Sequence record: OR842557 | Strand: one strand, 5' to 3' | DNA from: Escherichia phage 04086 | Length of the DNA: 64,000 nucleotides | Part shown: piece after piece, positions 7,706-57,751 of the stretch | How the letters are laid out: each line of letters starts with the position of its first letter | Position numbering within the stretch: the first letter of the stretch is position 1 | Made by a program: the position numbers and the translations under genes | The notes under the pieces: generated by a model | What the model was told of the DNA's origin: nothing | Databases searched by the model: none | Seen by the model: only the letters and a program-made list of their open reading frames with translations

Positions 7706-8872
7706 ATGTACAATATTAAGTGTCTGGCTAAATCTGAACAAGAGAAAGTAGTTTCCCTCTATAAATCCGGTAATTATACTCAGCAAGAATTAGCTGACTG
7801 GTATAGTGTTTCGGTTGATACCATTCGTAAAGTCCTGAAAAATGCTGAAGAAGCTAAACGTTCTCAAGTGGCTAAAGAATTAGCCGAATCTCTTAAAAAA
7901 GCACCTACTGTACCTCTTAACGCCCCAACAGAAGTGGTTATTACTGGAAATATCAAAGTAACGGTTCCTAACGAGCCTCGTGTAGTTCCGGTTGATATTA
8001 CTATTGGTGGTTCTCGTCCAGAAATTATCTGGAATGCTAGTTCTAAATTCGTGTCCATCACCGAAGGCCGTACAGTATGGAACACCACTAATAAGAACAA
8101 ACATTTTGATGCCATCGTACAGGCTCTTAAAGAATCTCGTTTTGACGACGCGATTAAACTGATTTCCATTAAAGAAGCTGTTAAGGCCTTCGTCAAAGGT
8201 AACGTTCGTATTGAAGGCGGACGTCTGGTTTATCAAGGTATCGAATTGCGTTCCGGTTTGATTGACCGTATTATCACCTCAATGGAAAATGGCGAAGACT
8301 TCGAATTCTACCTGCCGTTCCTTGAGAACCTGTTAGAAAACCCAAGTGAAAAAGCTGTACAGCGTCTGTTCGACTTCTTGGTCGCGAACGATATCAAAAT
8401 CACTGAAGACGGCCACTTTATCACATGGAAGGTGGTTAACTCCGATTACACCGACTGCCGTACTGGTACGTTTGATAANNNTGAAAAAGCTGTACAGCGT
8501 CTGTTCGACTTCTTGGTCGCGAACGATATCAAAATCACTGAAGACGGCCACTTTATCACATGGAAGGTGGTTAACTCCGATTACACCGACTGCCGTACTG
8601 GTACGTTTGATAACTCACCAGGCAAACCGGTTAAAATGCCTCGTTCACGTGTAAACAATGACGACACAGTAACTTGTTCAAGCGGTCTACACGTTTGCTC
8701 TCGTAGCTATATCGGCGCATTTGGTAATTCAAACAACCGTGTAGTTTCATGTAAAGTTAACCCACGTGATGTTGTTAGTATTCCTGTTGATTATGGCGAT
8801 GCTAAAATGCGCGTATGTTATTATGAAGTTCTGGAAGACGTTACCGATCAGTTTAAATCAGATTTACGTTAA
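7706..8872 (+). CDS. rIIB: rIIB protein; annotated length inflated by a 135-nt in-frame duplicated segment with NNN
   Basis: Position downstream of rIIA; real length about 343 aa after removing the duplicated copy. Confidence 0.85.
   Translation: MYNIKCLAKSEQEKVVSLYKSGNYTQQELADWYSVSVDTIRKVLKNAEEAKRSQVAKELAESLKKAPTVPLNAPTEVVITGNIKVTVPNEPRVVPVDITIGGSRPEIIWNASSKFVSITEGRTVWNTTNKNKHFDAIVQALKESRFDDAIKLISIKEAVKAFVKGNVRIEGGRLVYQGIELRSGLIDRIITSMENGEDFEFYLPFLENLLENPSEKAVQRLFDFLVANDIKITEDGHFITWKVVNSDYTDCRTGTFDXXEKAVQRLFDFLVANDIKITEDGHFITWKVVNSDYTDCRTGTFDNSPGKPVKMPRSRVNNDDTVTCSSGLHVCSRSYIGAFGNSNNRVVSCKVNPRDVVSIPVDYGDAKMRVCYYEVLEDVTDQFKSDLR
8348..8612. repeat. N-marked junction (NNN at 8479-8481) between identical direct copies inside rIIB
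   Basis: 131-nt segment GAAAAAGCTGTACAGCG...GTTTGATAA present twice, separated by NNN. Confidence 0.85.
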
Positions 8873-22795: not shown

Positions 22796-25700
22796 TTATG
22801 GTGTATCAATCCATTCGAATTTAACAGAACGAGTTACCGGGTCCGGAACTATACGAACGTTACCAATACGTAACCAATCACGAATGGTCAAGTTACTCAT
22901 TGAAGCGTTGTCTGAAGGCAAAGCACCGATATCAGACGGCTGCGGTGGGTTACCACCATCAAATACCTGAACAAATCCAGACCAAGCATTTTTATTTTGC
23001 TGCCAAGTACGAGTCCAACGAGTGGTGCTTCCGTCTGCAGTATTTGGATAGGTAATCCAATCTTGGTAAAGTGAATTCAGGGTGTTACCAAACTGAGTTA
23101 ACGTACCGGGCGATTTAACTTCTTCACCGCGGACCAGATACGGCAGTCCAGTTACTTCGTTGGTCTTTTCAACCATTTTAAAATAACCTGGGAACTGGTT
23201 ATATGTGGCTGAATCATTAACGTCAACAGACCAAAACCCGGTGTTATCGGCATTTGGTTTTCTCGAATAAAGGTCAGCGGGTTTAGTACCTTGCGAACGA
23301 ATTCTCGAGTTAACTGTTAAACCACCCAAATTTATAGTAGCACCTTTGGCAATGATTAAGCTTTCACCAATCGTTACTTGGCCAGATGTATTACTAATAG
23401 CTAATGGTCTTAATCCGTTAAAGCCACCAGTCTGGTCATTTGCATTTGTAAGCATGAAATAGATGTTCGAGTTATCATTACGAATAAAGAACCCGTACTG
23501 TCCACTAATAGCTCTAAATGCGTTTGCACTATAGGTTATAAATTCACCCTGTGCAGTCACTGAACGTCCAAATGTTGCCACCCCATTAGCATTCAATGTT
23601 CCGGATGCATTAACGTTAATCGGTTGAACTGTGCCGTTGATACTAAAAGTAATATTACCAAGATTATTCCGTTGAGAATAAAAATGGTTGGATGTTTCAT
23701 CGCCAACTTCAAATATCGTAGAACGACTTGTATCAGAACCACCAGCGAATTGGTTACCCCATACTCGGATATTCATGGTTTGAAACGGGTTATTTCCAGT
23801 TTGTGGTCCTTTTTCAAATATCAAACGAGTTGAAGCACCTGTATTACGAATAGTAAATGTAGAATTAGCAGCTAAAGAACCACCAAACTCACCTGTACCA
23901 CCTGTAGCCAATTGGCCATCCACTCTGATGTTTTTACGAAGGGTTAATGTTCCTTCAACTATTTGGTCGATATCTCTCCTGACAAACTGAGAGCTATCCA
24001 GATTGTCCAATTTATCGGAGTCAAAAGCCTTACCTTTAATCGGAAGATAGTGAGTTAATGCGGTGTTCATCTGAAATGGTGAAATAGCAAAACCATCGTC
24101 TTCAAATTTAGCCAGGTTGGCAACCGAACCATTAGTATCGTCACCTTCCCAAGTGGCCGTACCTGTGGTTAATTTAACATATCCTCTACGAGCAGAAGTA
24201 GCTTCCCAGGATTTTTCCTGTTGGACGATATATTTGTAATGCTTGGGACTAAACGCTTTATTACTTACCGTACCAACAATAACTTCGGCCTGAGTAGCGA
24301 GTTGGATAATACCTTCAGCGTTTTCGGTAGCCTTTTTAGCTTGAAGCTTAAGTGGAGTGATGATTGTTTTGTCATCAATACCGGTATTAACTTCAGTTTG
24401 GGTAGCCAAACGAGCCGTACCACGTTGAGTATTACTTGCTTCACGGATATCTAGTGTATAATGGTTCCATAAGGTTCCTGTTTCAATCAAACCACTGGCT
24501 GCTGAGACAGAAGTTCTAGCAGTATCATTAAATCTTGTTTTAACTTTCAACGGAGTTGAAATAACATTATCTAATACACCTGCATCAAATTCTACTTGAG
24601 TACCAATACGAGCAATACCAGTAAGTGTTTGAGTAGCATTCCTGTCATTTAACGTCTTAGGCGTTACCGCACGAGTATAATCAGTTCCAGCATCAGTCTC
24701 TGTTTGCGTAGCAATTTCAATTAAACCGTGATTAGTATCAGTAGCACGACGAGCACCTAATGTTTCAGGTGTAACAACTGAGTTACTAAAACCTAGGTTA
24801 GTAGCACCGGCGTTAACTTCGGCTTGCGTAGCAAGATATACAGCACCTTGGTTCTCATAGTTAGCTTTATATTGGTCCAAAGCTTTAGGAGAAATAACTA
24901 AAGTAGTTGTGTTCTTATTATAAACGTTAGTACCTACAGTTGCTCTAGAAGTCGCAGGAGTGGTTCCAGTGGTGGATACGTATTTTACTATACCTGACAG
25001 GCTTTCAGTTCCCTGGCGCGTCTGTAGCTTCTTAGGAGTGATAATGGTTGTATCATCAACACCTGCATCAGTTTCCTGTTGCGTAGCAATTTCAGCGACA
25101 CCACGACGGGTTTCGGTAGCAGTACGTTCGTTTAATTTCTTAGGAGAAATAATCAAATCGTCCTGGAATGCAAATCCAGTATTCTGGTTTACCTGAGCAG
25201 TTGTAGCAATACGGGCAATACCACGACGTGATTCAGTCGCTACACGATTGGCTAAAGTCTGCGGAGTAATTGCAAGTTCTTTTTCAGGATTATTTTCGTG
25301 GTCGACGTTTGCTTGGGTCTGTGACGCCAGAGCAATAACACCTAGACGAGCACGGGTTAAATCATCCTTAGAATCCACACGTTCTACAGTAGGAACGTTC
25401 TGAGCAACAACCCAATATTTGCCACCTGTAGTGATGTCTTCGATATAACTCAGTTCAATAACCGGAGTATAACTTAAGTTACCATTGAAGGTCAATACAT
25501 CATTCAACACCCATTCGGTATCCGGCGGATATTCAGAACGTTTAGGGAACTGGAGCAATTGAACCGAAGAAGCTATTTTATCTCCTACAGAAGCCTTAAT
25601 ATTTACCGTCTGAGCTTTACGGAGATAGTTCAGAGCAATCTTAACGACATCACCCTGGGCTACGCTTGTGGGTAACGTGATATTAATGGTTTGTGGAGTT

Positions 25701-37705: not shown

Positions 37706-37758
37706 TAAAATCTGATTATAATTGACTCATGGATGAGTCACTAACAAATGAGAATAAC

Positions 37759-38898
37759 ATGTCTACAGTTTTTAATACCACCCCAGTTGATGTTTTAGTC
37801 GAACCGATGTTCTTTGGTTCAGGATTGGGTATTGCTCGTTATGATATCCAACGTCATAAAGTGTTCGAAGAGCTTTGTGAGAAGCAGTTGAGTTTTTTCT
37901 GGCGTCCAGAAGAAGTCAACTTGATGATGGATGCTGCTCAATTTAATAAGCTTCCACAATTCCAACAAAATATTTTTACCAATAACCTGAAGTATCAATC
38001 ACTTCTGGATAGTATCCAAGGTCGTGCTCCTTCTGCAGCACTCCAAGCCTTGATTTCCGACCCTAGCCTTGATACTTGGGTGGCTACATGGACCTTTAGT
38101 GAGACCATTCACTCTCGTTCATATACCCATATTATGCGTAACCTCTATACAGACCCATCTAAGGTATTTGATGAAATTCTGTTAGATGATGCTATCATGA
38201 AACGTGCTGAATCCATTGGTCGTTATTATGATGACGTTATCGAGAAAACTCGCCTTTATCAGAATGCTTTAGAAGAATATCATGAGTTTAGCGAAGGCGT
38301 AAAACAGGCTAAATACGAACTAATGCGTTCTCTTTACCTCTGTCTGCACGTAATCAACGCCCTGGAAGCTATTCGTTTTTACGTATCTTTCGCATGCACC
38401 TTTAACTTCCATAAAAACATGGAAATCATGGAAGGTAATGCTAAGATTATGAAGTTCATTGCACGTGATGAACAGCTTCACCTTAAAGGTACCCAGTACA
38501 TTATTCGTCAACTCCAACTTGGTACTGATGGTGCTGAATGGGTTAAAATTGCTCAAGAGTGCGAACAAGAAGCAGTTGATATTTTCATGGAAGTTAACCG
38601 TCAAGAAAAAGAATGGGCCGCTCACCTGTTCAAAGATGGTACTTGCCCTGGATTAAATACTCAGAACATGGGTGCTTTTGTCGATTACCTGACAGTTTCT
38701 CGTATGAAGCAATGTGGCTTACCATGTCCTATTACTGATGCTCCTGCCCGCCATCCATATCCTTGGATTCGTGAATACCTGAACTCTGATGCTGTACAGG
38801 CTGCTCCTCAGGAAGTGGAAATCAGTTCTTACCTTGTAGCACAAATTGATAACGATGTTGATGAAAAAGTAATGGCATCGTACAAGAAATATTTTTAA
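37759..38898 (+). CDS. nrdB: Ribonucleotide reductase small subunit, intron-less (about 379 aa)
   Basis: Recalled similarity to T4 NrdB from MSTVFNT; di-iron ligand context; continuous ORF with no intron; directly follows nrdA with no mobE-like gene between. Confidence 0.9.
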   Translation: MSTVFNTTPVDVLVEPMFFGSGLGIARYDIQRHKVFEELCEKQLSFFWRPEEVNLMMDAAQFNKLPQFQQNIFTNNLKYQSLLDSIQGRAPSAALQALISDPSLDTWVATWTFSETIHSRSYTHIMRNLYTDPSKVFDEILLDDAIMKRAESIGRYYDDVIEKTRLYQNALEEYHEFSEGVKQAKYELMRSLYLCLHVINALEAIRFYVSFACTFNFHKNMEIMEGNAKIMKFIARDEQLHLKGTQYIIRQLQLGTDGAEWVKIAQECEQEAVDIFMEVNRQEKEWAAHLFKDGTCPGLNTQNMGAFVDYLTVSRMKQCGLPCPITDAPARHPYPWIREYLNSDAVQAAPQEVEISSYLVAQIDNDVDEKVMASYKKYF

Positions 38899-38925
38899 GG
38901 AATGGGGCTTCGGCCCCTTATTGCT

Positions 38926-39336
38926 ATGAAAGAAATCGCAGACGAATTTAGCTTTATCAAGTACGTCACCCTAGAACTCCAAGATGACGCCACCATAGCT
39001 CCACTTACGGTACCAAATAAACAAAATGTAATATATGCTATAGCGGTTGATGATATACTAGTCTACGTCGGGAAGACTAAAAATCTTCGTAAGCGCATCA
39101 ACTACTACCGGACCGCTATTAATCGTAAGGACCAAACGTCAGATTCGACTAAGTCCATTCTGATTCATGAAGCATTAATGGCAGGTAAAAAGGTGGAGTT
39201 CTATGCACGGCAGTGCTTTAATCTGTCGATGACTAACGAACTTGGAACTATGTCAGTTGAGACCATGTCTCTTGAAGAGCCAATGTTCATAAAGAAATTT
39301 AATCCACCTTGGAATACCCAACACCGTGCCAAATGA
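38926..39336 (+). CDS. denA: Endonuclease II (GIY-YIG family nicking endonuclease, 136 aa)
   Basis: Strong recalled similarity to T4 EndoII (MKEIA.E.SFIKY, VIYAIA..D.LVY.GKTKNLRKRINYYRTAINRKD). Confidence 0.9.
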   Translation: MKEIADEFSFIKYVTLELQDDATIAPLTVPNKQNVIYAIAVDDILVYVGKTKNLRKRINYYRTAINRKDQTSDSTKSILIHEALMAGKKVEFYARQCFNLSMTNELGTMSVETMSLEEPMFIKKFNPPWNTQHRAK

Positions 39337-39983
39337 AGAAACATTACATATACAAAATTACAGTTATGGAAGGCCCATTTAAAGACCACTATTATATAGG
39401 TAAAAGGTCTAACGAGGACCCTGAAAATGACATTTATAGCGGTAGTGGTGTAAAACTACCGTATATAAAAAGAAATTTTAGATTTATTAAGGAAATTTTA
39501 TCATTTCATTCGGATGAACAAGAAGCTTATGATAAAGAAAAGGAATTGGTATGTTATGAGGCCTTAATGGACCCATATTGTTTAAATGTTGTTCTTGGAG
39601 GCAGGGGTCATAAAACGGGTGATAAATTATCGCAATGGTATTTTTATGATGAGCTTTTTGAATTATGGGTAAATAACGGTCTATTAGGATACGGAAGATT
39701 TGGGCGATTGGCTGTCTCATTAGGATATCCTAATGAGCATTACGGAGGCCTTATAGCGGCCTTTGAAAAAAATTCAGGATTAAAAGCAAATTCTAATACC
39801 AAAACCCTAGGAGTTCCTTCTTCCAAGCGTAAGGAACATTGGCTTTACGAAAAGGAGCTTTTCGAACATTGGGTTAAAATGGGCCGATGCGGTCATAGAA
39901 CCTTTAAACGCAAGATGGTAGCTTTAAATTATCCTGATGTATCCTATTATCAAATGGTTGAAAATTTTAAGGTAAAGCAATGA
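39333..39983 (+). CDS. GIY-YIG homing endonuclease, seg-like (216 aa) with internally repeated C-terminal module
   Basis: N-terminal HYIYKITV...YYIGKRS is a clear GIY-x10-YIG; C-terminus carries two copies of a ~45 aa unit; inserted between denA and rnlA. Confidence 0.7.
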   Translation: MKKHYIYKITVMEGPFKDHYYIGKRSNEDPENDIYSGSGVKLPYIKRNFRFIKEILSFHSDEQEAYDKEKELVCYEALMDPYCLNVVLGGRGHKTGDKLSQWYFYDELFELWVNNGLLGYGRFGRLAVSLGYPNEHYGGLIAAFEKNSGLKANSNTKTLGVPSSKRKEHWLYEKELFEHWVKMGRCGHRTFKRKMVALNYPDVSYYQMVENFKVKQ

Positions 39984-41128
39984 TTGAATTATATGATAAC
40001 TTGATGGCCCTGGTTAAAAACTCGACTAAATCTAAGTTCTTCTTTAAAGACTTTCAGAGTGCTCTAGGAGTCAACTATCGCATCTTTAGTTATAACTACG
40101 CATCATACAGTGATTGGTTGGAAGACGGCGCACTAGAGTGCCGAGGCATTATGTTTGAAATGGACGAGAAAGGTCCTGTACGTATTGCCGCTCGTCCTAT
40201 GCAAAAGTTCTTTAACCTCGACGAAAACCCTATGACTATCGGTCTAGATTTGTCGCCAGAAAATATCGACCTCGTAATGGCTAAGGAAGATGGTTCTCTG
40301 ATTTCTACATTCATGGACCGACAGTATCTTTCTGTTAAATCTAAAGGCTCTATCCATTCATCAATGGTGCATGATTCTTTACGGTTCCTTCGTCTCCCTG
40401 AGAACGAGGCTTTTGCCGCACGTCTAGAAGAAATCACCAAAGCTGGGTATACCTGCAACCTTGAATATGTAGCACCTACCAACCGTATCGTGCTGGCTTA
40501 CCAAGAAACAAACCTCATCCTGTTAAACGTTCGTAATAATGAAACAGGTGAATATATTCCGTATGCTGAATTGTTTAAAGATGGCGCGCTGCGTAAGCAT
40601 TTGGTTGAAAGCTATGACCTCACCGAAGGTGATTTCGTAGAAAACATCCGTAAACAAGAGGGTATTGAAGGTTTCATCTTTGTACTTAAAGATGGTACGT
40701 TCTTTAAACTCAAAACTGCATGGTACAGTGCACTACATCATACCAAAGATTCCATTAACAATAACGAACGTTTGTTTGAAGTTGTAGTGGCTGGTGGTAC
40801 TGACGACCTTCGTGGCCTGTTCAGTACGGATTCGTTTGCTATCGAGAAAATCGATGCCTTTGAACGTATCCATTTAGATTACTTAGAACAATCACTGGCT
40901 TTGTTAGAAGCAGCGTACTCCCAACTCAAAGGCCGCGACCGTAAGGACTACGCTGTTACAGGTCAATTAATCCTTAAGGACTTCCCAGGGTTGTTCTCTA
41001 TTCTTATGCAGGCGTACGTAGGCGGTATTAATTACGATACGGTTGTAGACCAGATTAACTCTGTGTTCTTGAAAAACCACAAAGCCCAAATCCCTGAAAA
41101 ATATTTGAAAGAAATTGTGGTAGAGTAG
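39980..41128 (+). CDS. rnlA: RNA ligase 1 / tail fibre attachment catalyst gp63 (382 aa)
   Basis: Recalled similarity to T4 Rnl1 (YRIFSYNYASYSDW, ALECRGIMFEMD, KEDGSL, FVAPTNRIVLAYQE, LLNVRNNETGEYI). Confidence 0.9.
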   Translation: MIELYDNLMALVKNSTKSKFFFKDFQSALGVNYRIFSYNYASYSDWLEDGALECRGIMFEMDEKGPVRIAARPMQKFFNLDENPMTIGLDLSPENIDLVMAKEDGSLISTFMDRQYLSVKSKGSIHSSMVHDSLRFLRLPENEAFAARLEEITKAGYTCNLEYVAPTNRIVLAYQETNLILLNVRNNETGEYIPYAELFKDGALRKHLVESYDLTEGDFVENIRKQEGIEGFIFVLKDGTFFKLKTAWYSALHHTKDSINNNERLFEVVVAGGTDDLRGLFSTDSFAIEKIDAFERIHLDYLEQSLALLEAAYSQLKGRDRKDYAVTGQLILKDFPGLFSILMQAYVGGINYDTVVDQINSVFLKNHKAQIPEKYLKEIVVE

Positions 41129-41186: not shown

Positions 41187-41894
41187 ATGAATATGCAAAT
41201 GATTACTAACGAAATGGTTGTTAAGGCTTTTGGTGACTCTACTGACGGTATCCAAGTTTTTAAAGGTTCTCGTGCAGTAGGTTACCTGACCGATCTTCGT
41301 GTTACTTTAGCTAAAAATGCTAAAAAGAAAATCAAGCAAAAAGAATACTCTACCCGTTATGCAGAAGAAAAGCGTGAAGCCATGCCCGAAGCTGTTAACT
41401 CTATGGTTGAGTTTCTCCGAAACAACCTTTCCAAGTACGATGCCGAGGTGTTCATTAATATTAGCCAACCCAATGTTAAAATCTCAGGTATCACTTTCTA
41501 TTTGATTTGTGACCCATTAAGCGACAAGTTTAATCGCCTTGGCATTTCAAGTCCTTACCATACCGCTGAAGAATTGTGTTTTATGTTCGAAACGTACAAA
41601 ATTCAGTGTGAAAATCCTAAAACAGTTCTTATTAATTCCCTGTCACGTGATGACATCATCGAGATTATTACCAAATGTCTAANTAAAATCTCAGGCATCA
41701 CGTTCTATTTGATTTGCGACCCATTAAGCGACAAGTTTAATCGCCTTGGCATTTCAAGTCCTTACCATACCGCTGAAGAATTGTGTTTTATGTTCGAAAC
41801 GTACAAAATTCAGTGTGAAAATCCTAAAACAGTTCTTATTAATTCCCTGTCACGTGATGACATCATCGAGATTATTACCAAATGTCTAAATTAA
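41187..41894 (+). CDS. alc: Probable Alc (host transcription termination/inhibition) protein; length inflated by N-junction duplication
   Basis: Position between rnlA and pseT region; real length about 167 aa as in T4 Alc. Identity rests on position and size. Confidence 0.55.
   Translation: MNMQMITNEMVVKAFGDSTDGIQVFKGSRAVGYLTDLRVTLAKNAKKKIKQKEYSTRYAEEKREAMPEAVNSMVEFLRNNLSKYDAEVFINISQPNVKISGITFYLICDPLSDKFNRLGISSPYHTAEELCFMFETYKIQCENPKTVLINSLSRDDIIEIITKCLXKISGITFYLICDPLSDKFNRLGISSPYHTAEELCFMFETYKIQCENPKTVLINSLSRDDIIEIITKCLN
41477..41889. repeat. N-marked junction (N at 41683) between ~206 bp near-identical copies inside alc
   Basis: Second copy starts with three synonymous third-position differences. 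Confidence 0.8.
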
Positions 41895-42235
41895 GTATTT
41901 ACCTTTTAGCTGGAGCCATTGCAGTAGGTGCTTACGGTTTTATTTCGTATCAATCAAGTCGTATTGATACCCTTACTGAAGAACTGAAAACCACCCAGCA
42001 AACGGCAAAACAGAACGCTGAAGCTGTAGAGGACCTTCGTGGTCAATACTCTGATATTGAATTCCGTACTACTGAAATGAATGCCCGAATGGATAAAATT
42101 AAGGTAGAAAATGAAAAGCTCCGTAAAGATTCGAAGAAGGCGCACGTGGTGGCAAGTAAGCCAGGACTGGTCGAAAAACAAATCAACAAGTCCTTCGATT
42201 CCTTTACAGAAGACTTCAGGAGCATTACAGAATGA
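41882..42235 (+). CDS. pseT.3: i-spanin (Rz-like inner-membrane spanin subunit, 117 aa)
   Basis: Single N-terminal transmembrane helix followed by charged coiled-coil-like periplasmic domain; immediately upstream of a lipoprotein gene. Confidence 0.7.
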   Translation: MSKLSIYLLAGAIAVGAYGFISYQSSRIDTLTEELKTTQQTAKQNAEAVEDLRGQYSDIEFRTTEMNARMDKIKVENEKLRKDSKKAHVVASKPGLVEKQINKSFDSFTEDFRSITE

Positions 42236-42695
42236 TTAAATTATCTGTAGTAGTATTATCTATTGGCTTGTTAGTTGGATGTGCCCAGGATGTCCCTGTA
42301 GTGCCTAAGCAACAACTGCATCCTTCATGGCCACAACCTATCGCCGAACATAATGTTAAATGGCAGGTTAAGGTAATCGATGGTAAGGCCTGGGTTGGAA
42401 TGCCATTTGAAGATTCCCAAGAACATCGTATTTGGTTGAATGACGTAAAAAGATATGTACAANCATCCCTGTAGTGCCTAAGCAACAACTACATCCTTCG
42501 TGGCCACAACCTATCGCCGAACATAATGTTAAATGGCAGGTTAAGGTAATCGATGGTAAGGCCTGGGTTGGAATGCCATTTGAAGATTCCCAAGAACATC
42601 GTATTTGGTTGAATGACGTAAAAAGATATGTACAAGACCAGAAATCTATGTTATGTTATTATCGTTCCGGCCTAAAAGAGGAGAAGTGCAAATGA
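42232..42695 (+). CDS. pseT.2: o-spanin (Rz1-like outer-membrane lipoprotein); duplicated by N-junction
   Basis: Signal peptide with lipobox LVGC, proline-rich mature region; real length about 97 aa. Confidence 0.7.
42290..42636. repeat. N-marked junction (N at 42463) between ~173 bp near-identical copies inside the o-spanin gene
   Basis: Two synonymous differences at the start of copy 2. Confidence 0.8.
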
Positions 42696-55669: not shown

Positions 55670-57751
55670 ATGACCCAATTAAATGAAGTGTTCGAGTCCG
55701 AAGGTACACTGCCTGTTGTGAACTTGAACCCAAAACTTAAAGTACCTCAGATTTGGAAGATTGGAGACGCGGAGTCTCAGTTAGTAGCACGTATGGTATC
55801 CTACGCTTCTGAAGGTGATGCTATTAAACAAGTTAAAATGGGTGATAAATATGCCCACGTTATCCTTATGAGCCTTTCAGCTAAAGGTTCGCCTGCCGAA
55901 CTTAAAGGCGGCTTAGGCCCTACTCCTGTAGATGCGATTAATACTATTTTTGATGTAGTTTATGACCAAGTTAAAAAGCTTCGTATGGATGCCGTGATGT
56001 TCCGTTTTCCTACCAAGAAAATGAAAGGTCAAGGCCCTATCGTTCAACGTATTATCCAACGTTTGGTAGCACAGAAAACCGGTGGACGTTTTAAAGTGGT
56101 TCCGGCTATGTACCAATTTACCGGTAAACATACTTACATCCTGGTAGTCCGTAAACAAGCTGATATCGAAGATATCAAAGGTATGCCTGGAATTAATGCT
56201 GAATTGTATACTAAGGTAGATTCTGATGTCGGTGAAGTTTATATTTCCAAAAAAGAAGGTGTGCAGGTTACTAAAGAAACTGCTATTGCTGGCAGTATTG
56301 CTAAGGTTGAAGAACGTCGCACTGATAAAATGGTTATAACCAAGACTAAGATTTCTAGGCGCGCCATTGCAGCAAGCCAATCATTGGAATCTTATCGTAA
56401 TGAAAGTGAATTGTTTAAGAAATATGAAGCTACTGCAGCGGATTTTAATAAACCGGCAACAGTTCCATTAATCCCTGAGGCTCAGGAAATGGTTACTAAT
56501 AACAATTCTCCTGCGGCTAAAAATAAGGTTGCTAATATAGTGGCTGAAGGCACTGCTGAAGAATTGCATTACGATTATAAAATGTTTCCTCTTCACGGTA
56601 TAGGTGAAATCCAAGAGAAAATTAAAGAGAAAATTCTTACAGCAATAAAAAACGAACCTTTGACATCTGTTAAAGCTCTAGAAAAATATGCCTCTGCTAT
56701 TAATACCGTTTTCGAAGAATACAAAGGTGAATGGCTGGCTATCCATAACAGAACTCGTAAAGGCCAACCTGATGACCTTTGGAACGAATTGACAGAGGCC
56801 AAGTGGAAAGCAGCCAAGACTAAGTTCATTAAAAAACGTGTATATAGTTTTGCTGGTGTGGGTGGCGGTATTATGGTTGATATTACTATTGCTCGTGAGG
56901 GCTCTAAATATACCCCATCACAAAAGCGCGGAATCAGAGAATATTGTGGTTCAGGATATACAGACATAAATAATCTTCTTTTAGGACGTTATAATCCTCA
57001 GAACTATGAGGTTATGAGCGAAAAAGATATCGAATCTGCAGTTAATAATTTGGATTCTGCTTTTGAAAACGGCGACCGTATACCAGAAGGCATCACAGTT
57101 TATCGCGCACAGAGTATGACTGCTCCTATATACGAAGCACTAGTTAAAAATAAAGTGTTCTATTTCAGAAATTTTGTATCTACTTCTTTAACTCCTATCA
57201 TTTTCGGACGTTTTGGTGTTACCCACGCAGGTATTGGTCTTTTAGAACCTGAAGTTCGCAATGAATTGACAGTCGATAAAAATGAAGAAGGAATAACTAT
57301 TAACCCTAATGAAATAAGAGCGTATAAAGAAAACCCTGATTACGTTAAAGTTCAAATAGGATGGGCAATTGATGGAGCCCATAAAGTTAATGTCGTATAT
57401 CCAGGAAATCTCGGAATAGCAACTGAAGCCGAAGTTATTCTGCCGCGTGGATTAATGGTCAAAGTTAATAAAATAACAGATGCTTCTAATAATGATGGAA
57501 CAACATCTAGTAATACAAAACTCATCCAAGCTGAAGTTATGACAACAGATGAGCTTCAAGAATCTGTGGTATATGATGGTGACGTACTAATGGAAACCGG
57601 CGAGCTGGTCGTGTATCAAGATGATTTCGATACTTCCGAAAGCCCTGTATCTTTTGATTCATTTGTTAAATCTACACGGTTTGATGTACTGCCTCTTTTG
57701 GCTTCATGCATAGACCTCTATGACATCCCAGAAAAATTCATCCAAGGGTAA
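55670..57751 (+). CDS. alt: Alt-family ADP-ribosyltransferase, paralog 2 (693 aa)
   Basis: Same N-terminal module; motifs YRAQ, FVSTSL, EAEVILPRG; size closest to T4 Alt. Confidence 0.85.
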   Translation: MTQLNEVFESEGTLPVVNLNPKLKVPQIWKIGDAESQLVARMVSYASEGDAIKQVKMGDKYAHVILMSLSAKGSPAELKGGLGPTPVDAINTIFDVVYDQVKKLRMDAVMFRFPTKKMKGQGPIVQRIIQRLVAQKTGGRFKVVPAMYQFTGKHTYILVVRKQADIEDIKGMPGINAELYTKVDSDVGEVYISKKEGVQVTKETAIAGSIAKVEERRTDKMVITKTKISRRAIAASQSLESYRNESELFKKYEATAADFNKPATVPLIPEAQEMVTNNNSPAAKNKVANIVAEGTAEELHYDYKMFPLHGIGEIQEKIKEKILTAIKNEPLTSVKALEKYASAINTVFEEYKGEWLAIHNRTRKGQPDDLWNELTEAKWKAAKTKFIKKRVYSFAGVGGGIMVDITIAREGSKYTPSQKRGIREYCGSGYTDINNLLLGRYNPQNYEVMSEKDIESAVNNLDSAFENGDRIPEGITVYRAQSMTAPIYEALVKNKVFYFRNFVSTSLTPIIFGRFGVTHAGIGLLEPEVRNELTVDKNEEGITINPNEIRAYKENPDYVKVQIGWAIDGAHKVNVVYPGNLGIATEAEVILPRGLMVKVNKITDASNNDGTTSSNTKLIQAEVMTTDELQESVVYDGDVLMETGELVVYQDDFDTSESPVSFDSFVKSTRFDVLPLLASCIDLYDIPEKFIQG

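What the first reader, a model, noticed from the sequence alone, without database searches (positions are those of the whole stretch)
39333..39983. GIY-YIG homing endonuclease between denA and rnlA with a duplicated C-terminal module
The ORF has a canonical N-terminal GIY-YIG motif (HYIYKITV...YYIGKRS). Its C-terminal half contains two tandem copies of a ~45 aa unit: QWYFYDELFELWVNNGLLGYGRFGRLAVSLGYP and HWLYEKELFEHWVKMGRCGHRTFKRKMVALNYP. To my recollection T4 has no gene at this position, so this looks like a free-standing homing endonuclease inserted beside another GIY-YIG enzyme (EndoII). The repeated unit may be a bipartite DNA-binding domain.
Basis: partly seen in the sequence, partly recalled or inferred. 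Interest (0 to 1): 0.55.

Follow-up and report, generated by a model that had tools for sequence, protein, structure and literature searches.

The report
Seg-type homing endonuclease with two HTH modules
This is an unannotated selfish DNA-cutting gene (a free-standing GIY-YIG homing endonuclease of the phage T4 Seg family). It is inserted between two conserved genes in a few T4-like phages and carries two copies of a small, uncatalogued DNA-binding module also found in T4 SegA and MobD. It is an ordinary kind of element at a new site.

Summary
The ORF is real: 39333..39983, + strand, 216 aa. It lies between denA and rnlA of a Dhakavirus (JS98/IME08-like T-even phage), with ATGA stop/start overlaps at both ends.

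- **Distribution:** it is a ~645-bp insertion found in only three sequenced relatives. It is absent, at a precise junction, from about 30 others and from T4.
- **Repeat:** the repeat is significant (score 88 against 26±4.6 in shuffles).
- **Module:** each 43-aa unit folds as a three-helix HTH/homeodomain-like bundle. It has no Pfam model. It occurs in 1-3 copies on both GIY-YIG and HNH homing endonucleases, including T4 SegA and MobD.
- **Duplication:** the two copies are not each other's nearest relatives, so the duplication is not recent.
- **Mobility and selection:** the insert is 3-5 times less diverged than its flanks and sits on different flanking haplotypes. Variable codons are 11 synonymous to 2 non-synonymous.
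- **Hotspot:** an unrelated HNH endonuclease occupies the same junction in other genera.

This is a new member of a known kind. Cleavage activity and target are untested.

The parts
38902..39336 (+). denA (endonuclease II), the upstream neighbour. Its last codons are rewritten by the insertion: ...QHRAK* here against ...QHRIKQ* in insert-free phages.
   Evidence: Pfam GIY-YIG E 8e-5 and PHROG 1111 E 1e-63; junction alignment.
39324..39972 (+). The inserted segment (~645 bp) relative to insert-free Dhakaviruses, where 5 bp (TAGGA) occupy its place. Left identity ends at 39323. Right identity resumes at 39973, or at 39968 if two mismatches are allowed.
   Evidence: Alignments with QL01. Megablast covers 62% of the query in two pieces in about 30 relatives. 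The only fixed HEG+/HEG- differences in the flanks are at 39970 and 39972.
39333..39983 (+). Homing endonuclease ORF, 216 aa. Its ATG overlaps the denA stop (ATGA) and its TGA overlaps the rnlA ATG (ATGA). It has no promoter or Shine-Dalgarno sequence of its own.
   Evidence: It is annotated only as 'hypothetical protein' in IME281, IME540 and vB_EcoM_005.
39333..39599 (+). Seg-type GIY-YIG nuclease domain (residues 1-89). The motifs are YIY (5-7) and YIG (21-23). Y7, Y21, G23, Y35, G37-S38-G39, E69, N85 and G89-G90 are invariant across Seg-like relatives.
39600..39635 (+). Short flexible linker between the nuclease domain and the first module (residues 90-101; pLDDT below 50 for residues 89-96).
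   Evidence: AlphaFold2 model.
39636..39764 (+). Module copy 1 (residues 102-144), the core of a three-helix bundle (helices 100-114, 120-129 and 138-148).
   Evidence: Module HMM i-E 5.6e-20; model.
39765..39839 (+). Linker between the modules (residues 145-169). It has low confidence around residues 149-165 and ends in a basic stretch, SSKRKEH, immediately before module 2.
   Evidence: sequence.
39840..39968 (+). Module copy 2 (residues 170-212), a three-helix bundle (helices 168-182, 188-197 and 206-215).
39980..41128 (+). rnlA (RNA ligase 1 / tail fibre attachment), the downstream neighbour. Its Shine-Dalgarno region (TAAGGTAAAG) lies inside the last codons of the endonuclease ORF.

Best explanation
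The ORF encodes a free-standing homing endonuclease of the T4 Seg (GIY-YIG) family that has colonised the denA/rnlA junction of some Dhakavirus genomes.

Shown here:
- It is an insertion with precise boundaries.
- It is rare among close relatives.
- It is carried on different flanking haplotypes and is much less diverged than its flanks.
- It is under purifying selection.
- It has a Seg-type GIY-YIG domain with the conserved Tyr/Tyr/Glu/Asn positions.
- A short flexible linker joins that domain to two copies of a 43-aa three-helix module.
- The same module sits at the C-terminus of T4 SegA and MobD and of many other GIY-YIG and HNH endonucleases of T4-like phages.

Inferred:
- The gene is a promoter-less cassette, transcribed with nrdB-denA-rnlA and translated by coupling to denA (ATGA overlap).
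- In a mixed infection the two HTH-like modules bind two adjacent DNA sub-sites in the insert-free allele, most likely at or close to the denA 3' end / rnlA 5' end.
- The tethered GIY-YIG domain then makes a double-strand break with 2-nt 3' overhangs, as SegA and I-TevI do. Because the linker is only about 10 residues, against 75 in I-TevI, the cut should lie close to the binding site.
- Repair from the endonuclease-carrying genome copies the gene into the cut genome, together with some flanking DNA.
- The carrier allele is probably protected because the insertion itself separates or rewrites the junction sequence. No other fixed differences exist within about 500 bp.
For: Insertion and distribution:
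- 100% query coverage at 98% identity only in IME281, IME540 and vB_EcoM_005. About 30 Dhakaviruses match in two pieces that lack the ORF.
- In QL01 the denA stop overlaps the rnlA start directly.
- A scan of IMG/VR found only the same phages.
- T4 has no gene at this position, and the T4 list of 15 endonucleases has none at this site (PMC2988022).

Mobility:
- The insert differs by 5-9 of 645 nt among the four carriers, while their flanks differ by 35-63 per ~1030 nt.
- IME281's left flank is 5-8 differences from the insert-free WG01 and QL01 but 39 from the window.

Selection:
- 11 synonymous against 2 non-synonymous variable codons.

Nuclease domain:
- PHROG 314, E 4e-16.
- A Seg-like profile hits T4 SegB, C, E, D, A and F at 1e-18 to 1e-31.
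- BLASTP aligns end to end with T4 SegA, 1e-9.
- The top PDB profile hit is I-TevI 1ln0, E 0.013.
- hhalign pairs Y7/Y6, Y21/Y17, G23/G19 and E69/E75.

Modules:
- The repeat is significant.
- The family comprises 28 cluster representatives with 1-3 copies, on Seg-type GIY-YIG, a 'YRTY' GIY-YIG variant and HNH domains.
- The module is present in T4 SegA (23594-23722) and MobD (56471-56599).

Expression:
- Promoter-less cassettes are typical of T4 seg and mob genes (PMC2988022). No promoter signal above chance was found here.
Against: - No biochemical data exist. Cleavage, target site and DNA binding are all inferred.
- Pfam GIY-YIG and NCBIfam give no hit.
- Foldseek of the whole model against the PDB gave nothing significant.
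- The I-TevI catalytic Arg27 falls in an alignment gap, so its equivalent (K24 or R25?) is not established.
- Module 1 is net acidic.
- No polymorphisms distinguish carriers from non-carriers in the flanks. There is therefore no sequence clue to the target or to a co-conversion tract, and the low insert divergence could also come from ordinary recombination.
Confidence: 0.8

Rival explanations
1. The protein is a Seg-family nuclease whose main role is no longer homing. It might exclude competitors, act as a transcriptional or translational regulator of rnlA, or promote local recombination or amplification that benefits the phage, as recently reported for SegB.
For: The ORF carries the rnlA ribosome-binding region and is translationally linked to both neighbours, so it is embedded in host gene expression. 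It is under purifying selection. SegB has been shown to promote amplification of anti-defence loci (PMC13096335 abstract). I-TevI doubles as an autorepressor (PMC2988022).
Against: The gene is dispensable in most Dhakaviruses. Its patchy distribution and low divergence on varied flanks are what a selfish element shows. Nothing here points to a specific alternative target.
Confidence: 0.1
2. The gene is ancestral to Dhakavirus and was lost repeatedly, rather than gained by insertion or homing.
For: Presence/absence data alone cannot give direction. The junction in insert-free phages is seamless.
Against: It is absent from T4 and from other Tevenvirinae genera, which have either nothing or an unrelated HNH gene at the site. 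Many independent, base-precise deletions that restore the ATGA overlap would be required. The insert is 3-5 times less diverged than its flanks, and carrier flanks do not cluster together.
Confidence: 0.04
3. It is a decaying, catalytically dead relic of a homing endonuclease.
For: Pfam's GIY-YIG model does not match. The motif spacer is 13 residues. The Arg27 equivalent is unassigned. T4 itself carries defunct endonucleases such as I-TevIII and mobA.
Against: The ORF is full-length in all four carriers. Variable codons are 11 synonymous to 2 non-synonymous. All positions that are invariant across Seg-like proteins are retained. Both domains are predicted with confidence.
Confidence: 0.04
4. 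The nuclease assignment is right, but the repeated C-terminal modules are protein-interaction or dimerisation domains rather than DNA-binding domains.
Against: The module occupies exactly the position that DNA-binding modules (NUMOD1, NUMOD3, zinc fingers) occupy in Seg and Mob proteins. In the window protein it is the only non-catalytic domain, so nothing else could confer site specificity. It is combined with two unrelated nuclease folds. The top structural neighbours are DNA-bound HTH domains. Basic arms precede many copies.
Confidence: 0.1

Closest known systems
Phage T4 SegA (free-standing GIY-YIG homing endonuclease, uvsX/beta-gt locus)
   Same: It aligns end to end (27% identity, BLASTP 1e-9). 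It has the same Seg-type GIY-YIG domain and the same C-terminal 43-aa module (T4 23594-23722, i-E 1e-11). It is also free-standing between conserved genes. SegA is a proven site-specific endonuclease that leaves 2-nt 3' overhangs (PMC2988022).
   Different: SegA has one module preceded by a NUMOD3-like lysine-rich segment. The window protein has two modules and no NUMOD3. The genomic locus differs, and so presumably does the target.
Phage T4 SegB, SegC, SegD, SegE and SegF
   Same: The nuclease domain is closest to these. The Seg-like profile scores them at 1e-18 to 2e-31, and BLASTP to SegB gives 36% identity over residues 4-92.
   Different: Their C-terminal regions lack the module and use other DNA-binding segments.
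Phage T4 MobD and Dhakavirus IME08 'MobE' (HNH free-standing endonucleases)
   Same: They carry the same C-terminal module as a single copy (T4 56471-56599, i-E 6e-14; IME08 L008 1231-1359, i-E 2e-20).
   Different: Their nuclease domain is the unrelated HNH fold. MobD's activity and target are unknown (PMC2988022 Table 1).
I-TevI (intron-encoded GIY-YIG endonuclease)
   Same: It is the best structural and profile match for the catalytic domain. It has the same two-part logic: a nuclease domain tethered to a modular DNA-binding region.
   Different: I-TevI is intron-encoded. It has a 75-residue linker with a zinc finger, a minor-groove helix and one HTH. Here the linker is about 10 residues and there are two three-helix modules. 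Sequence identity is about 21-23%.
Bipartite HTH DNA-binding domains (Tc3 transposase, paired domain, Myb R2R3)
HNH + NUMOD3 + Cys4 'MobD-like' endonuclease at the same denA/rnlA junction (Erwinia phage COW86c; Klebsiella phages K65_evo7 and 15882-3)
   Same: It occupies the same insertion point, with the same ATGA overlap with the denA stop and the same provision of the rnlA ribosome-binding site.
   Different: It is an unrelated protein of 204 aa with an HNH nuclease domain and no copy of the module.

Membership tests
GIY-YIG nuclease superfamily | The GIY ... YIG motif pair near the N-terminus (classically 10-11 residues apart) | tested here: met
   YIY is at residues 5-7 and YIG at 21-23. 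The spacer is 13 residues because of a 3-residue insertion that is absent from many relatives.
GIY-YIG nuclease superfamily | Match to the curated family profile (Pfam PF01541 or NCBIfam) | tested here: not met
   There is no Pfam or NCBIfam hit, even at E<=1 and E<=10 respectively. The adjacent denA does pass PF01541.
GIY-YIG nuclease superfamily | Conserved catalytic Glu and Asn (I-TevI E75 and N90) | tested here: met
   E69 and N85 are invariant in 14 Seg-like sequences. hhalign pairs E69 with E75. N85/N90 is assigned by spacing only.
GIY-YIG nuclease superfamily | Conserved Arg after the YIG motif (I-TevI R27) | tested here: inconclusive
   R27 falls in a gap of the profile alignments. K24 or R25 are candidates, but the assignment was not resolved.
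GIY-YIG nuclease superfamily | The beta-beta-alpha-beta-alpha fold of the I-TevI catalytic domain | tested here: met
Free-standing (Seg-type) homing endonucleases of T-even phages | Sequence membership of the Seg nuclease-domain clade (GK[HR]S...ND.Y.GSG signature) | tested here: met
   PHROG 314, E 4e-16. tblastn finds Seg-like genes. The profile hits T4 SegA-F at 1e-18 to 1e-31. The profile includes one SegB-like sequence, so the SegB score is partly by construction. Independent BLASTP gives 1e-9 for SegA and 5e-10 for SegB.
Free-standing (Seg-type) homing endonucleases of T-even phages | The gene lies between conserved genes and is present or absent among close relatives, with a clean empty site | tested here: met
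Free-standing (Seg-type) homing endonucleases of T-even phages | Site-specific cleavage of the endonuclease-less allele and over-inheritance in mixed infection | not testable with these tools
   The only indirect support is that the insert is 0.8-1.4% diverged against 3.4-6.1% for the flanks, and sits on different flanking haplotypes.
NUMOD1 / NUMOD3 / IENR DNA-binding modules of homing endonucleases | Match to PF07453 (NUMOD1) or PF07460 (NUMOD3) | tested here: not met
   There is no hit for the whole protein or for its C-terminal half at E<=1. Relatives such as Moon gp119, P0024 and IME08 MobE have NUMOD3 in addition to the module. NUMOD2 has no model in these libraries and could not be tested.
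Helix-turn-helix / homeodomain-like three-helix DNA-binding domains | Three-helix bundle superimposable on known DNA-binding HTH domains | tested here: met
Helix-turn-helix / homeodomain-like three-helix DNA-binding domains | Sequence-level relationship to a described HTH family, or demonstrated DNA binding | tested here: not met
   A profile of 38 modules finds no PDB sequence at E<0.9, and there is no Pfam or PHROG domain model. DNA binding is not testable here.

The most novel reading that the evidence does not exclude
The 43-aa unit (consensus W-x5-(D/E)L(Y/F)-x-LW-x3-(G/N)-x-(P/G)-x4-F-x2-(I/L)A(V/I)-x2-GYP(D/N)-x2-Y-x2-M(V/I)-x2-F) is a so far undescribed family of homeodomain-like DNA-binding modules. 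In effect it would be a further 'NUMOD'. T4-like phages attach it in one, two or three copies to both GIY-YIG and HNH nucleases, each copy reading its own sub-site. On this reading the window protein is the minimal example, a nuclease plus two modules and nothing else, and therefore the cleanest system for working out the module's recognition code.
Probability: 0.4. Interest if true: 0.5.

Novelty: new member of a known kind. Interest (0 to 1): 0.33.

Why it matters
- **Annotation:** it adds an unannotated Seg-family homing endonuclease, labelled 'hypothetical protein' in the three public genomes, at a locus not occupied in T4.
- **Hotspot:** the denA/rnlA junction is a recurrent landing site, used by at least two unrelated endonuclease families.
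- **Module:** more usefully, the finding exposes a small DNA-binding module that has no Pfam model. It links T4 SegA and MobD, a GIY-YIG and an HNH enzyme, and occurs in arrays of 1-3 copies.
- **Experimental value:** here the two modules are the only non-catalytic parts of the protein, so it would be a compact test case for how such modules set target specificity. That is relevant to engineered GIY-YIG nucleases.
- **Limit:** none of this changes the current understanding of homing endonucleases.

Tried and rejected
- **Curated profiles:** Pfam and NCBIfam scans of the ORF and of its C-terminal half gave nothing. A PHROG scan of the C-terminal half alone gave nothing.
- **Word-indexed protein search:** with the C-terminal half and with a 38-sequence module profile it returned no hits, which reflects the limit of the index. 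The exhaustive representative search was needed instead.
- **More carriers:** the IMG/VR scan for further carriers or relatives at other loci found only IME281 and vB_EcoM_005 again, plus two weak N-terminal matches.
- **Target-site clues:** I looked for polymorphisms or a co-conversion tract that separates carriers from non-carriers. None exists within about 500 bp, apart from two bases in the rnlA Shine-Dalgarno region.
- **Expression signals:** scans for sigma-70-like promoters, terminators and T4 late promoters around the ORF found nothing above chance.
- **Recent duplication:** I considered a recent internal tandem duplication and rejected it. The sister modules rank only 22nd and 11th of 32 in similarity to each other.
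- **Shared module at the hotspot:** I asked whether the HNH endonucleases at the same junction share the module, which would have tied the module to this target. They do not.
- **Literature:** searches found no description of the module. The 2003 NUMOD paper is not in the library.

Full report
**What is there**

The window is a draft assembly of a Dhakavirus, a JS98/IME08-like T-even coliphage. The 1.7 kb around the finding is 98% identical to phages IME281, IME540 and vB_EcoM_005.

The ORF runs from the ATG at 39333 to the TGA at 39981-39983 and encodes 216 aa. It lies between denA (38902..39336) and rnlA (39980..41128), both identified by strong profile matches. The denA stop overlaps the ORF's ATG (ATGA), and the ORF's stop overlaps the rnlA ATG (ATGA). 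No N of the draft assembly falls in this region.

**It is an insertion**

About 30 close relatives (QL01, WG01, Bp7, IME08, JS10 and others) match the flanks at 94-99% identity but lack 644 bp. In QL01 the denA stop overlaps the rnlA start directly.

Alignment places the left boundary after 39323 and the right boundary at 39968-39973.
- Five bases (TAGGA) of the empty site are replaced.
- The denA C-terminus changes from ...QHRIKQ* to a recoded ...QHRAK*.
- The last codons of the new ORF (...KVKQ*) take over the old denA tail, which holds the rnlA Shine-Dalgarno region.

T4 has denA and rnlA adjacent with a 52-bp spacer and no gene between them. The published table of T4's 15 homing endonucleases lists nothing at this site (PMC2988022). 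A scan of IMG/VR found only the same carriers.

**Signs of mobility and of function**

Among the four carriers the insert differs at 5-9 of 645 positions (0.8-1.4%). Their flanks differ at 35-39 of 1024 positions on the left and 39-63 of ~1030 on the right (3.4-6.1%).

Carrier flanks are no closer to each other than to non-carriers. For example, IME281's left flank is 5-8 differences from WG01 and QL01 but 39 from the window. The same cassette therefore sits on different backgrounds, as expected for recent horizontal spread.

Of 13 variable codons, 11 are synonymous. The exceptions are P/L at codon 81 in phage 005 and a stop one codon early in IME540.

No fixed differences separate carriers from non-carriers within about 500 bp, apart from two bases in the rnlA ribosome-binding region. 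The sequence therefore gives no clue to the cleavage site. Immunity of the carrier allele would most simply come from the insertion splitting the junction.

**The nuclease domain**

Pfam's GIY-YIG model and NCBIfam do not match.
- PHROG 314 'homing endonuclease', E 4e-16 over residues 1-99.
- tblastn to many Seg-like genes.
- BLASTP to T4 SegB (36% identity over residues 4-92, 5e-10) and to SegA (end to end, 1e-9).
- A profile of 14 Seg-like N-termini hits T4 SegB, C, E, D, A and F at 1e-18 to 2e-31. It also hits I-TevII (8e-5) and I-TevI (1e-3).
- The same profile's best PDB sequence hit is the I-TevI catalytic domain, E 0.013.
- hhalign to I-TevI gives E 1.8e-4 and pairs Y7/Y6, Y21/Y17, G23/G19 and E69/E75.

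Y7, Y21, G23, Y35, GSG37-39, E69, N85 and GG89-90 are invariant in the family alignment. The equivalent of I-TevI Arg27 could not be assigned.

**The repeat**

The self-alignment is far beyond chance: 88 against 25.9 +/- 4.6, with 0 of 1000 shuffles reaching it. An exhaustive search with residues 95-216 found 28 cluster representatives. An HMM built from them defines a 43-aa core present once, twice or three times per protein.

The partner domains are Seg-type GIY-YIG, a 'YRTY...' GIY-YIG variant, or HNH. NUMOD3 motifs are often present between the nuclease domain and the module.

Single copies close the C-terminus of T4 SegA and T4 MobD. They also close the C-terminus of IME08 'MobE', RB68 'segE', Citrobacter phage Moon gp119 and a Jiaodavirus endonuclease.

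No Pfam, NCBIfam or stand-alone PHROG model covers the module, and no PDB sequence is related to it.

The two copies in the window protein are 31-34% identical to each other but up to 56% identical to modules in other proteins. They rank only 22nd and 11th of 32 as each other's neighbours. This is an array of old paralogues or shuffled modules, not a fresh duplication.

**Fold of the module**

Both copies are predicted with high confidence as three-helix bundles, separated from the nuclease domain and from each other by low-confidence linkers (residues 89-96 and about 149-165). A separate model of copy 2 has pLDDT 88.7.

- SNAPc4 Myb repeats and TnsB.

For 50 residues these scores establish the fold class only. 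Many copies, including copy 2 (SSKRKEH-W), are preceded by a basic stretch reminiscent of a homeodomain N-terminal arm. That comparison is an inference.

**How it most likely works**

The gene is a promoter-less cassette like seven of T4's free-standing endonucleases (PMC2988022). No promoter or terminator signal exceeds chance, and translation is probably coupled to denA.

The protein would bind through its two modules to adjacent sub-sites in the insert-free allele. The GIY-YIG domain, on a tether of only about 10 residues, would cut nearby. Repair from the carrier genome would then copy the gene across. Binding, cutting and target are all inferred.

**Context**

The same junction holds an unrelated 204-aa HNH + NUMOD3 + Cys4 endonuclease in Erwinia phage COW86c and in Klebsiella Jiaodaviruses. 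It holds a 91-aa non-endonuclease ORF in Pectobacterium phage PM2. The site is therefore a recurrent landing place. Those proteins lack the module.

**Verdict**

This is a new, unannotated member of the Seg family at a new locus. Its one modestly interesting feature is that it consists of a nuclease plus two copies of an uncatalogued HTH-like module shared with SegA and MobD.

Noticed in passing
window 2727, 8479-8481, 12361, 13224, 34180, 34404, 36777, 41683, 42463, 46283, 58326, 58561: Twelve short runs of N are present. Several are flanked by duplicated sequence (135-451 bp repeats at 8479, 13224, 34180, 34404 and 58561). The ORFs at 41187..41894 (alc-like) and 42232..42695 show duplicated protein segments across an X. 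These look like unresolved contig joins of a draft assembly, not biology.
   Followed up: partly
L021 1229-1843, L022 1236-1850, L023 1936-2550, L024 931-1206: The denA/rnlA junction is occupied in other Tevenvirinae genera. Erwinia phage COW86c and Klebsiella phages K65_evo7 and 15882-3 carry an unrelated 204-aa HNH + NUMOD3 + Cys4 'MobD-like' endonuclease there, and Pectobacterium phage PM2 carries a 91-aa ORF of unknown function. The junction is an insertion hotspot.
   Followed up: partly
T4 NC_000866 23594-23722 (segA) and 56471-56599 (mobD), both on the minus strand: T4 SegA (GIY-YIG) and MobD (HNH) end in the same 43-aa module. This link between the two endonuclease classes is not mentioned in the T4 mobile-element review that was read.
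   Followed up: yes
window 38904-38917: A perfect GGGGC-TTCG-GCCCC hairpin with a UUCG tetraloop lies 5 nt after the nrdB stop and overlaps the first ATG of the long denA reading frame. IME281 annotates denA from the second ATG, 24 nt downstream. It could be an RNA-stability or terminator-like element, or it could affect which denA start is used.
   Followed up: no
L011 474-1091; L010 2634-3281: Annotation differences in the carriers. In vB_EcoM_005 the ORF is annotated from an internal Met (residue 12), which removes the GIY motif. In IME540 a C-to-T change at the position equivalent to window 39978 stops the protein one codon early, so its stop no longer overlaps the rnlA ATG.
   Followed up: partly
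L013 1-2199 (phage Bp7), compared with window 37729..38898: In Bp7, nrdB is split by an insertion that carries an 'intron-like DNA endonuclease'. The window's nrdB is uninterrupted (389 aa). This is another mobile-element polymorphism within 1.5 kb of the finding.
   Followed up: no
P0011, P0016, P0019 (metagenomic proteins): Some relatives carry three copies of the module behind a divergent 'YRTY...YAGK' GIY-YIG domain. P0015 (121 aa) and P0023 (52 aa) consist of modules only, with no nuclease domain. They may be fragments, or they may be stand-alone DNA-binding proteins.
   Followed up: no
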